Origin: an uncultured Clostridia bacterium
GTDB lineage: Bacteria > Bacillota > Clostridia > TANB77 > CAG-508
Length of the DNA: 64,000 nt
Assembly: GCA_934129745.1 (NCBI GenBank)
Contig: CAKOWZ010000002.1
Location: 1,440 to 65,439 of the forward strand
Reading direction: 5' to 3'
Made by a program: the position numbers and the translations under genes
Shown here: piece after piece, positions 14,501-14,670 of the stretch
Layout: each line of letters begins with the position of its first letter
How positions within the stretch are numbered: the stretch's first letter is position 1
Notes under the pieces: generated by a model
Databases searched by the model: none
The model's input: the letters and a program-made list of their open reading frames with translations, nothing else
What the model was told of the DNA's origin: nothing

Positions 14501-14670
14501 AAACTAGATTAGATGATAATAAAGATTCATGTAAATTGGTATTATCTGTTAGAACAGGTAAATATGGTGTAACTAAAAATATGGTTGCAATTTCATGTGT
14601 TATTCTTGCAGAAATTTTGACAGTTGTTTATGTTGTCAGTGAAGTAAGAGATAGAAAAAGAAGTGAATAA
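2575..14670 (+). CDS. giant cell-surface protein, about 4,030 aa, reconstructed across three in-frame CGG +1 sites. Features: N-terminal signal anchor, Cna-B/prealbumin-like repeats, GLUG-like NxYNTG repeats, repeated GGTISGE...PD.GY modules, DUF11-like domain, C-terminal VRTG motif plus TM plus basic tail
   Basis: ATG at 2575 with an AAAGGAA ribosome-binding site. The ORF-track pieces 2729..7396, 7506..7718 and 7735..14670 join into one frame if the C of in-frame CGG codons at 2602, 7382 and 7677 is skipped. The reconstructed N-terminus MLKNLKTKKGIIITVISVVAVLIASIICIFAF is a typical signal anchor. GLUG-type repeat phase (GGIVGYNRKTGNISNSYNT; TNMGQVCIAGLTGVRFNDDS) is restored across the junctions. 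Confidence 0.75.
2602..2604 (+). other. in-frame CGG codon; frame must advance +1 (skip C, resume at GGA Gly) to continue the protein
   Basis: atg tta aaa aat cta aag aca aaa aaa CGG aat tat... terminates in the 0 frame. Skipping C gives the continuous signal anchor ...KKGIIITVISVV. Confidence 0.6.
7382..7384 (+). other. in-frame CGG codon; +1 (skip C, resume at GGA Gly) required
   Basis: 0 frame: aca CGG aaa tat aag taa. Skipping C gives GNISNSYNTANIKYNYKNDLKYDHQLYEDNFLGGITGGSVGM..., continuous with the next ORF-track segment (7506). Confidence 0.6.
7677..7679 (+). other. in-frame CGG codon; +1 (skip C, resume at GGT Gly) required
   Basis: 0 frame: aat atg CGG tca ggt ... taa. Skipping C gives GQVCIAGLTGVRFNDDSEKLEITNTYNTGDIIGK, continuous with the 7735 segment. 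Confidence 0.6.

What the first reader, a model, noticed from the sequence alone, without database searches (positions are those of the whole stretch)
14548..14670. Shared C-terminal VRTG plus hydrophobic plus basic tail on both large surface proteins: possible non-canonical cell-wall sorting signal
The giant protein ends ...LVLSVRTGKYGVTKNMVAISCVILAEILTVVYVVSEVRDRKRSE (VRTG encoded at 14548-14559). The independent 1,321-aa surface protein ends ...VILTVRTGEPIIYTGIAIGAIAIISLGIVIIRKKVLAK (VRTG at 42861-42872).

Both match the tripartite layout of sortase substrates: a motif ending in TG, then a hydrophobic span, then a positively charged tail. The pentapeptide is (S/T)VRTG rather than LPXTG. Both proteins also place a DUF11-like domain just upstream.

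From established knowledge, variant sortase motifs exist (NPQTN, LAXTG, (S/P)PKTG in Clostridia). A dedicated sortase or other transpeptidase recognising xVRTG is therefore plausible, but I do not recognise this motif as described.
Basis: inference. Interest (0 to 1): 0.5.

Follow-up and report, generated by a model that had tools for sequence, protein, structure and literature searches.

The report
Variant TG sorting tail on adhesins
Two giant surface adhesins of an uncultured low-GC gut Clostridium end in a conserved tail ([S/T/A][V/I]xTG, membrane helix, Lys/Arg) that looks like an LPXTG cell-wall sorting signal without its proline; the tail is real and shared by hundreds of relatives, but whether a sortase cuts it is unproven.

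Summary
Both proteins end in xVRTG, a hydrophobic helix and a basic tail. They are not independent: their C-terminal CLIPPER/DUF11 domains are homologous (26% identity, E 4e-14).

The tail is a family trait. In 251 non-identical relatives, Gly is present in all 247 in-register tails and Thr in 93%. P3 is Ile or Val in 85% and P4 is Ser, Thr or Ala in 93%. P2 and the four residues after Gly vary freely. TG follows the C-terminal domain copy (133 of 142) and is essentially absent after 723 internal copies. Syntenic orthologues in seven species keep [AST][IV][RK]TG.

Some homologues carry MPKTG, SPSTG or SPATG in the same register. Others carry NVKTG or MPKTG after a linker. Canonical LPQTG/MPxTG tails and sortase genes occur in the same clade.

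Against cleavage: no sortase lies in the window. No sortase is known to cut xVxTG; C. difficile SrtB does not cut NVQTG. The model puts P4-P2 in the last β-strand. The helix is unusually conserved.

Verdict: probably a proline-less LPXTG-type sorting signal (about 45%), otherwise a permanent membrane anchor (about 40%). This is a new variant of a known kind.

The parts
2521..14670 (+). Giant fibrillar adhesin gene. It is about 4089 aa when intact. In the window it is split into ORFs 2521-2673, 2729-7396, 7506-7718 and 7735-14670. Domains found: SpaA, GLUG and MucBP.
   Evidence: ORFs. N-terminal signal anchor spread over two frames. Pfam SpaA, Glug and MucBP. Intact 4089-aa gene in the same species: L094.
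14062..14544 (+). C-terminal CLIPPER/DUF11-like domain of the giant adhesin.
   Evidence: Homologous to the C-terminal domain of the 1321-aa protein (E 4e-14). Its homologue P0393 carries PF01345.
14545..14559 (+). SVRTG motif (P4-P1') of the giant adhesin.
   Evidence: Subfamily homologues have AIKTG, NVKTG or MPKTG here.
14560..14667 (+). Spacer KYGVTKNM, hydrophobic helix VAISCVILAEILTVVYVV (14584-14637), and basic tail SEVRDRKRSE (14638-14667).
39000..42965 (+). 1321-aa adhesin with an N-terminal signal anchor, SpaA domains and three CLIPPER/DUF11 domains.
   Evidence: The exact protein is on 6 contigs. Its 90%-identity cluster has 29 members.
42348..42857 (+). C-terminal CLIPPER domain of the 1321-aa adhesin. 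In the 205-residue model its last β-strand is residues 163-173, IDDAPVILTVR.
   Evidence: AF2 model with pLDDT 89.7. Best PDB match is the CLIPPER domain 9IFR. 375 homologues.
42858..42872 (+). TVRTG motif (P4-P1') of the 1321-aa adhesin.
   Evidence: Syntenic orthologues have AIRTG, SIRTG, TIKTG or TVRTG.
42873..42962 (+). Spacer EPII, helix YTGIAIGAIAIISLGIVII (42885-42941), and tail RKKVLAK (42942-42962).
   Evidence: Helix predicted at model residues 180-203. Conserved Tyr, Gly and KK positions.

Best explanation
The tail is the C-terminal anchoring module of a very large family of giant, isopeptide-stabilised fibrillar adhesins from uncultured low-GC gut and rumen Clostridia. The module is a CLIPPER domain, then [S/T/A][V/I]xTG, 0-9 residues, a hydrophobic helix, and KK.

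I read it as a derivative of the LPXTG cell-wall sorting signal in which the Leu-Pro has been replaced by the last two residues of the final β-strand. The proposed steps are:
1. The protein is exported through Sec. Signal anchors are present (shown).
2. The helix and basic residues hold it in the membrane (inferred from the sequence).
3. A membrane sortase of the clade cuts between Thr and Gly and joins the Thr carboxyl to peptidoglycan precursor (inferred, not shown). This would tie the force-bearing stalk covalently to the wall.

Which sortase acts is open. One candidate is the rsmA-linked housekeeping sortase. The other is the class-D-like one.
For: Shown:
(1) Three-part layout in both window proteins.
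(2) In 251 unique tails, Gly is present in all 247 in-register tails and Thr in 93%, while P2 and the four residues after Gly are highly variable.
(3) TG is confined to the C-terminal copy of the domain: 133/142, against essentially none of 723 internal copies. Internal copies run straight into the next FDLxLRK strand. TG is therefore not a requirement of the fold.
(4) Pro-containing sortase-type motifs occur in the same register: P0160 LLMPKTG, P0228 LLSPSTG, P0240 ILSPATG, P0170 LQPATG.
(5) In the divergent subfamily of the giant protein (26% identity to the other tail) the helix sequence is not conserved but the motif is. Variants are SVRTG, AIKTG, NVKTG after a 10-residue linker, and MPKTG after a 17-residue linker. 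So xVxTG and MPxTG replace each other just before the helix.
(6) A paralogue in the same gene cluster as two TG-tail adhesins ends its CLIPPER domain with ...VKVKK-PTI-LPQTG-ESNS plus helix plus KKY (L033).
(7) Sortase genes are present in the clade. L070 has Pfam Sortase at 1.5e-26, two genes after three tandem TG-tail adhesins. MAG JAFWHH01 holds the sortase (L087), a TG-tail adhesin and an MPQTG protein (L071). The rsmA-sortase pair is conserved.
(8) A sortase/substrate gene pair in the clade already uses a motif without Pro at P3: LLYTGAN (L048).
(9) Seven syntenic orthologues keep [AST][IV][RK]TG.

Established knowledge: class E sortases accept Ala at P3 (PMC5148588). Isopeptide-stabilised Gram-positive adhesins are as a rule sortase-anchored.
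Against: - No sortase lies in the window, and only 2 of the 76 adhesin loci carry one nearby: L070 and L048. The sortase of the window species was not seen.
- Canonical LPQTG, MPxTG and LPKAG proteins in the same clade are enough to explain why sortases are kept.
- The closest solved relative of the clade's sortase, C. perfringens SrtD (4D70, E 1.5e-11), prefers LPQTGS and does not use LAETG (PMC4498605).
- C. difficile SrtB does not cut NVQTG, and not even every SPxTG protein is sorted in vivo (PMC4155245, PMC5569036).
- The AF2 model puts P4-P2 (T171, V172, R173) in the last β-strand with no linker, although that block has pLDDT 63.
- Thr is replaced by Leu or Pro in about 3% of otherwise intact tails, while Gly never changes.
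- Within the main subfamily the helix has a fixed length (23 residues from Gly to KK in 104/138). It also has near-invariant Tyr, Gly, Ile and KK[YF]V[LI] positions, which is unusual for a segment that is discarded.
- The motif was never seen behind a domain of a clearly different fold.
Confidence: 0.45

Rival explanations
1. Permanent membrane anchor. The helix stays in the membrane for the life of the protein. TG is a conserved hinge or helix cap next to the membrane, possibly a relic of an ancestral LPXTG signal. No transpeptidase acts on it.
For: - The helix and tail are sequence-conserved with a fixed length. There is an interfacial Tyr five residues after Gly (86% of representatives), Gly at -5 (91%), Ile at -1, and KK[YF]V[LI] at the very end.
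- Gly is more conserved than Thr, and Thr is replaced by Leu or Pro in about 3% of tails.
- P4-P2 are modelled inside the last strand.
- NVQTG of C. difficile CbpA is not cut by its only sortase (PMC4155245).
- No sortase lies in the window.
Against: - A hinge or cap would tolerate Ser, Asp or Asn in place of Thr, but these are almost never seen.
- In the divergent subfamily the helix sequence is not conserved while xVxTG is, and homologues carry MPKTG or NVKTG detached from the domain.
- In-register MPKTG, SPSTG and SPATG variants exist.
- A single lipid-embedded helix is a weak anchor for a 1300-6000-residue stalk that is otherwise covalently reinforced (inference).
Confidence: 0.4
2. Substrate of another processing enzyme. 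Candidates are a rhomboid-type or other juxtamembrane protease that sheds the adhesin, or a dedicated sorting enzyme of the exosortase/archaeosortase/rhombosortase kind. In this reading TG plus the conserved helix is the recognition unit.
For: - Several paralogues per genome share a conserved signature, helix and basic cluster, which is the pattern that marks dedicated C-terminal sorting domains.
- A hydrophobic P4 and a small P1 (V-x-T-G) resemble rhomboid preferences (my own knowledge, not tested).
Against: - No NCBIfam C-terminal sorting-domain model matches the tails.
- No candidate enzyme recurs next to the adhesin genes in 76 loci. The recurrent neighbours are housekeeping genes (dacB-like, plsX, spo0A-like) plus a non-enzymatic membrane protein with Ig-like repeats.
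- The residues after Gly are variable.
Confidence: 0.12
3. Chance resemblance. Two unrelated proteins happen to have VRTG before a hydrophobic C-terminus.
For: None beyond the shortness of the motif.
Against: The two tails are homologous. The motif is conserved in hundreds of homologues and is specific to the C-terminal position.
Confidence: 0.01

Closest known systems
LPXTG cell-wall sorting signal of sortase substrates (class A/C/D sortases; NCBIfam TIGR01167)
   Same: N-terminal export signal. A C-terminal motif ending in Thr-Gly, followed within a few residues by a hydrophobic segment and basic residues. It sits on isopeptide-stabilised adhesins. Homologues carry true LPQTG or MPKTG in the same or an equivalent place.
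   Different: P4 is Ser, Thr or Ala and P3 is Val or Ile, instead of Leu-Pro. There is no linker to the last β-strand. The curated models match only the helix, below cutoff. Cleavage has not been shown.
Clostridioides difficile SrtB signals (S/P)PxTG, and the proposed NVQTG of CbpA
   Same: Clostridial origin. A small residue (Ser) at P4, Lys, Ser or Gln at P2, then TG. NVQTG has Val at P3, as here. Rare family members have SPSTG or SPATG in register.
   Different: SrtB needs Pro at P3. NVQTG was not cleaved in vitro, and CbpA is regarded as probably not a sortase substrate (PMC4155245, PMC5569036). The clade's sortases are not class B.
Class E sortase signal LAXTG (Actinobacteria)
   Same: It is the established case of a sorting signal without Pro at P3 (PMC5148588).
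   Different: Ala rather than a β-branched residue at P3, and Leu at P4. Different phylum. The clade's sortases score below the class E cutoff.
CLIPPER/DUF11 (PF01345) fibrillar adhesins
   Same: The domain directly upstream of the tail is a CLIPPER-type Ig-like domain (Pfam, NCBIfam, and AF2 model with best PDB hit 9IFR). It is repeated in the stalk (bioRxiv 10.1101/2025.04.25.650565).
   Different: In what I read of that paper, by term search only, sorting domains appear only as a general class of neighbouring domains. I did not see this TG tail described there.
Hydrophobic-tail (C-terminal helix) anchored surface proteins, such as Listeria ActA
   Same: A C-terminal helix plus basic residues with no recognised sortase motif.
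   Different: Those tails have no conserved signature just before the helix. Here TG is nearly invariant. (This comparison is from my own knowledge and was not tested.)

Membership tests
Sortase substrate with LPXTG-type cell-wall sorting signal | N-terminal signal peptide or signal anchor | tested here: met
   The 1321-aa protein starts MFKFKMSLLVKSAKFKVAIVTLLIVAILSGIVFIP. The giant gene has MLKNLKTKK... followed by NGIIITVISVVAVLIASIICIFAF, spread across a frameshift. This was read from the sequence; no predictor was run.
Sortase substrate with LPXTG-type cell-wall sorting signal | C-terminal motif, then a hydrophobic segment, then a positively charged tail, within about 50 residues of the end | tested here: met
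   The distance from Gly to the helix is 0-9 residues, most often 3, across the family.
Sortase substrate with LPXTG-type cell-wall sorting signal | Pentapeptide with Pro (Ala in class E) at P3 and Leu, Asn, Ser or Pro at P4 | tested here: not met
   At P3: Ile 46%, Val 39%, Pro 2.4%. At P4: Ser 49%, Thr 34%, Ala 10%.
Sortase substrate with LPXTG-type cell-wall sorting signal | Conserved Thr-Gly (or Thr-Ala/Asn) scissile pair | tested here: met
   Thr in 233 of 251 tails and Gly in all 247 in-register tails. The exceptions at the Thr position are Leu 5, Ala 4, Pro 3 and Ser 2.
Sortase substrate with LPXTG-type cell-wall sorting signal | Match to curated anchor models (TIGR01167, TIGR03063, NF033846) | tested here: not met
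   Scores were 13.2, 12.0 and 12.6 bits against cutoffs of 15.9, 18.15 and 23.5. Only the helix aligned.
Sortase substrate with LPXTG-type cell-wall sorting signal | A sortase encoded in the same genome | tested here: inconclusive
   None in the 64-kb window or in the 10 kb beyond fusA. Present in related MAGs that also hold TG-tail adhesins: CAMUZZ01 (L070) and JAFWHH01 (L087 and L071). The rest of the window genome could not be read.
Sortase substrate with LPXTG-type cell-wall sorting signal | Cleavage between Thr and Gly, and amide linkage to peptidoglycan | not testable with these tools
   This needs biochemistry or proteomics.
CLIPPER/DUF11 (PF01345) isopeptide-domain adhesin | Match to PF01345 / TIGR01451 and a CnaA-like Ig fold | tested here: met
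   For the 1321-aa protein: PF01345 at 4e-14 with 3 stretches, and TIGR01451 at 2.9e-18. The AF2 model of the C-terminal domain has pLDDT 89.7, and its best PDB hit is 9IFR. The giant protein's domain is linked only through homology.
CLIPPER/DUF11 (PF01345) isopeptide-domain adhesin | Lys-Asn isopeptide bond with a catalytic acid residue | not tested
   Lys in FDLALRK and Asn in NTAEI are invariant in alignment A1. The geometry was not examined.
Dedicated C-terminal sorting domains (PEP-CTERM, GlyGly-CTERM, PGF-CTERM, Firmicu-CTERM) | Match to a curated C-terminal domain model, and a cognate exosortase, rhombosortase or archaeosortase in the genome | tested here: not met
   No such NCBIfam model matched the tails even at E up to 10. 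No such enzyme was seen among recurrent neighbours. Genome-wide absence was not tested.

The most novel reading that the evidence does not exclude
[S/T/A][V/I]xTG is the true recognition motif of a sortase lineage outside the curated classes A-F. This lineage would accept a β-branched residue instead of proline at P3. It would anchor thousands of giant CLIPPER adhesins directly by the end of their last β-strand in uncultured gut and rumen Clostridia. That would be a new sortase specificity class.
Probability: 0.4. Interest if true: 0.6.

Novelty: new variant of a known kind. Interest (0 to 1): 0.5.

Why it matters
If a sortase cuts this tail, the rule that sorting signals have a P-x-T core (or A-x-T in class E) would gain a third form, with Val or Ile at P3.

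Several thousand large adhesins of abundant but uncultured gut and rumen Clostridia are missed by the curated anchor models tested here. They would become recognisable as wall-anchored proteins.

A sortase with a new specificity would also be a useful orthogonal tool for protein ligation.

If the tail is not cut, it is a clear example that 'TG, then hydrophobic, then basic' is not enough to call a sortase substrate. It would also show how a sorting signal can decay into a plain membrane anchor.

Tried and rejected
- Curated models: no anchor or C-terminal sorting-domain model matched above cutoff.
- Literature: searches for VRTG, SVKTG/TVKTG/TIKTG/SIKTG/SISTG/TVRTG, VKTG or IKTG with 'sortase', and Firmicu-CTERM found nothing relevant.
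- Sortase in the window: a regex and phmmer search of all six-frame ORFs found none.
- Reaching the rest of the window genome. The radical-SAM look-up failed, probably because the gene caller chose a different start codon. The SprT look-up gave contigs that begin at about the same place as the window, so they added nothing upstream. The fusA look-up reached the dcw cluster but stopped at ftsW.
- A metagenome scan with MraY found no contig of the same species (best 77% identity). It showed that the sortase position is not fixed relative to the dcw cluster.
- Matching contig lengths between the sortase and adhesin hit lists linked only L070's own contig.
- Recurrent neighbours of the adhesin genes: only housekeeping genes and a non-enzymatic membrane protein recurred. 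There was no dedicated enzyme.
- The two SipW-like signal peptidase genes after tex in orthologous loci were considered. I set them aside because they are syntenic neighbours, they are absent from the window, and they act on N-terminal signals.
- My recollection that C. difficile SrtB cleaves NVQTG was wrong. I corrected it from the papers.

Full report
OBSERVATION

Both tails are in the sequence exactly as described. ORF 7735-14670 (+) ends ...DDNKDSCKLVLSVRTG-KYGVTKNM-VAISCVILAEILTVVYVV-SEVRDRKRSE, with VRTG at 14548-14559. ORF 39000-42965 (+) ends ...GEDDIDDAPVILTVRTG-EPII-YTGIAIGAIAIISLGIVII-RKKVLAK, with VRTG at 42861-42872.

The 1321-aa protein has an N-terminal signal anchor, SpaA domains and three DUF11 domains. 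DUF11 is now named CLIPPER. CLIPPER is a CnaA-like domain that carries an intramolecular isopeptide bond and forms adhesin stalks (bioRxiv 10.1101/2025.04.25.650565).

The '2311-aa giant' is only a fragment. Another assembly of the same species has a single 4089-aa gene after the same radical-SAM and SprT genes (L094). In the window that gene is spread over 2521-2673, 2729-7396, 7506-7718 and 7735-14670.

The window is about 26% G+C. It comes from an uncultured Clostridia lineage whose public relatives carry names such as Clostridium sp. CAG:571, CAG:492 and UMGS isolates.

THE TWO TAILS ARE HOMOLOGOUS, NOT INDEPENDENT

The last ~200 residues of the two proteins align at 26% identity (E 4e-14), right through LVLSVRTGK / VILTVRTGE. 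The shared motif is therefore inherited together with a C-terminal CLIPPER-type domain.

THE TAIL IS A FAMILY TRAIT

A word-indexed search with the last 205 residues found 375 homologues. An exhaustive profile search of 1.84 billion representatives found 4809 proteins at E<=0.001 and 1400 at E<=1e-30. Most of the 150 listed are 1000-6700 residues long, and their match lies at the C-terminal end.

In 251 non-identical tails the consensus is EDDIDDAPV[MIL]L-[S/T/A]-[I/V]-x-T-G:
- P4: Ser 49%, Thr 34%, Ala 10%.
- P3: Ile 46%, Val 39%, Leu 5%, Thr 4%, Pro 2.4%.
- P2: variable (Lys, Ser, Val, Arg, Thr, Glu, Gln, Ala).
- P1: Thr 93%; the rest are Leu 5, Ala 4, Pro 3 and Ser 2.
- P1': Gly in every in-register tail.

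The four residues after Gly are highly variable.

Within full-length representatives, TG follows the C-terminal copy of the domain in 133 of 142 cases. It follows essentially none of the 723 internal copies. In 561 of those a next-domain start motif [FYW]D[LV] follows within about 24 residues of the EDDxD motif. TG is therefore a property of the protein's end, not of the fold.

Seven syntenic orthologues (ftsH - rubrerythrin - adhesin - tex) keep AIRTG, SIRTG, TIKTG or TVRTG. One genome can hold many such tails. There are at least four in the L002 gene cluster and three in tandem in L070.

STRUCTURE

An AlphaFold2 model of the last 205 residues (pLDDT 89.7) gives an Ig-like sandwich. Its last strand is residues 163-173 (IDDAPVILTVR), followed by a coil (TGEPII) and a helix at 180-203. 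The block 171-180 has pLDDT of only 63. The best PDB match is the CLIPPER domain 9IFR.

So P4-P2 of the putative motif are modelled as the end of the final strand, with no linker before TG.

EVIDENCE THAT THE MOTIF BEHAVES LIKE A SORTING SIGNAL

(i) Family members carry proline-containing, sortase-type motifs in exactly the same register: AFVLLMPKTG (P0160), APVLLSPSTG (P0228), APIILSPATG (P0240) and APVMLQPATG (P0170).

(ii) Only three homologues of the giant protein's tail were found, but they are informative:
- P0391 has ...IILAIKTG.
- P0392 has the last strand, a 10-residue linker, then NVKTG-D-helix-KKEK.
- P0393 has the strand, a 17-residue linker, then MPKTG-QAR-helix-RKRK.

Across this subfamily the helix sequence is not conserved but the motif is. 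xVxTG and MPxTG occupy the same place just before the helix.

(iii) In the same gene cluster as two TG-tail adhesins, a paralogue ends its CLIPPER domain with ...ENVKVKK-PTI-LPQTG-ESNS-helix-KKY (L033). An orthologue in L101 does the same.

(iv) Other canonical tails occur in the clade: MPKTG, MPQTG and LPKAG.

(v) Sortases exist in the clade.
- L070 encodes a 233-aa protein with a Pfam Sortase domain (1.5e-26). It passes the generic NCBIfam sortase model but no class A-F model. It lies after rsmA, two genes downstream of three TG-tail adhesin genes.
- The rsmA-sortase pair recurs next to cell-wall and division genes.
- MAG JAFWHH01 holds this sortase (L087), a TG-tail adhesin and an MPQTG protein (L071).

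(vi) A second, class-D-like sortase in L048 sits beside a small secreted protein ending TTTLLYTGAN-helix-KKRA. Here a motif with Leu at P3 is paired with its own sortase.

EVIDENCE AGAINST CLEAVAGE

- No sortase lies in the window or in the 10 kb beyond fusA. Only two of the 76 adhesin loci, L070 and L048, have a sortase nearby. I could not read the rest of the window genome.
- The canonical tails alone explain why the clade keeps sortases.
- The closest solved relative of the clade's main sortase is C. perfringens SrtD (4D70, E 1.5e-11). It prefers LPQTGS and does not use LAETG (PMC4498605).
- The only published xVxTG candidate, NVQTG of C. difficile CbpA, is not cut by SrtB. Even some SPxTG proteins are not sorted in vivo (PMC4155245, PMC5569036).
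- About 3% of intact tails have Leu or Pro in place of Thr, while Gly never varies.
- Within the main subfamily the helix has a fixed length and strongly conserved positions: Tyr five residues after Gly, Gly at -5, Ile at -1, and KK[YF]V[LI] at the end. That is more constraint than a discarded retention segment usually shows. The canonical LPQTG paralogues do end similarly, in ...IYKKY or ...IYRKF.
- No dedicated enzyme recurs beside the adhesin genes.

INTERPRETATION

The most economical reading is that the tail descends from an LPXTG-type sorting signal whose Leu-Pro was absorbed into the last strand of the CLIPPER domain.

Whether it is still cut is open. I put sortase-dependent wall anchoring at about 0.45, a permanent membrane anchor at about 0.40, another processing enzyme at about 0.12, and chance at about 0.01.

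The export signal, the layout, the conservation, the position specificity, the interchange with Pro-containing motifs and the presence of sortases in the clade are all shown. Membrane retention, cleavage after Thr and linkage to peptidoglycan are inferred.

COMPARISON WITH KNOWN SYSTEMS AND NOVELTY

The tail works like, and probably derives from, the LPXTG sorting signal. It fails the defining P3 (Pro or Ala) and P4 features, and it fails the curated models. I therefore do not file it as a member.

The closest precedents are the C. difficile (S/P)PxTG and NVQTG motifs and the class E LAXTG motif (PMC5148588). I found no description of [S/T/A][V/I]xTG as a sorting motif in the searchable literature.

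I rate it a new variant of a known kind, of moderate interest. It is a large, conserved and easily testable family, but the key biochemical step has not been shown.

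Noticed in passing
window 2521-14670 (+); L094 2362-11932: The giant adhesin is one 4089-aa gene in another assembly of the same species. In the window it is broken into at least three frames, at about 2670-2729, 7396-7506 and 7718-7735. The first break is next to a run of A's. This could be assembly error or slipped-strand phase variation.
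   Followed up: partly
window 46083-46718 and 46645-47508 (+): The comM (Mg-chelatase-like) gene is split into two overlapping ORFs. Relatives have one gene of about 509 aa (L080). This is another frameshift in the same contig.
   Followed up: no
L048 7737-9893 (-): Three adjacent genes: a membrane protein, a class-D-like sortase (active-site region MIYTC), and a 194-aa secreted protein ending TTTLLYTGAN-helix-KKRA. This looks like a sortase/substrate pair whose motif has Leu instead of Pro at P3. It lies 1.5 kb from a TG-tail adhesin.
   Followed up: partly
L070 11880-13479; L080-L093; L103/L104 about 1934-2733: A sortase outside the curated classes A-F is conserved next to rsmA and near dcw/comM-dprA-yraN genes across the clade. 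In the window, yraN is followed by topA instead. The dcw cluster of the window species lies just beyond fusA-tuf (L097).
   Followed up: partly
window 45249-46082; L004 12863-14072; L006 12995-14099; L009 13097-14406: Orthologous loci carry two SipW-like signal peptidase I genes after tex. The window has an ORF-free gap of about 830 bp there, with no tRNA.
   Followed up: no
P0167 (2505 aa): A protein with high-GC-type composition and about 31 CLIPPER repeats has a Pro/Thr-rich linker, then SIVRTG, a helix and RRR. This is an xVRTG tail in the classic position after a wall-spanning linker, in a very different lineage.
   Followed up: no
P0121-P0270 tails: The helix of the main subfamily is conserved at 50% clustering. 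It has 23 residues from Gly to KK in 104/138 tails, Tyr five residues after Gly, Gly at -5 and Ile at -1. It ends KK[YF]V[LI], most often (88/138) with just these three residues after KK. This hints at a sequence-specific partner in the membrane.
   Followed up: partly
window 16906-19059 and 19301-21562 (-): Two adjacent ORFs carry non-ribosomal peptide synthetase motifs: condensation and adenylation in one, then adenylation end, carrier and reductase in the other. They look like one gene broken in two. A histidine kinase gene (14804-16816, -) lies between them and the giant adhesin.
   Followed up: no
L078 10742-11719 and 21 other loci: A single-pass membrane protein of about 307-323 aa with Ig-like repeats lies directly downstream of the adhesin gene in 22 of 76 loci. 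Its function is unknown and it has no enzyme motif.
   Followed up: partly
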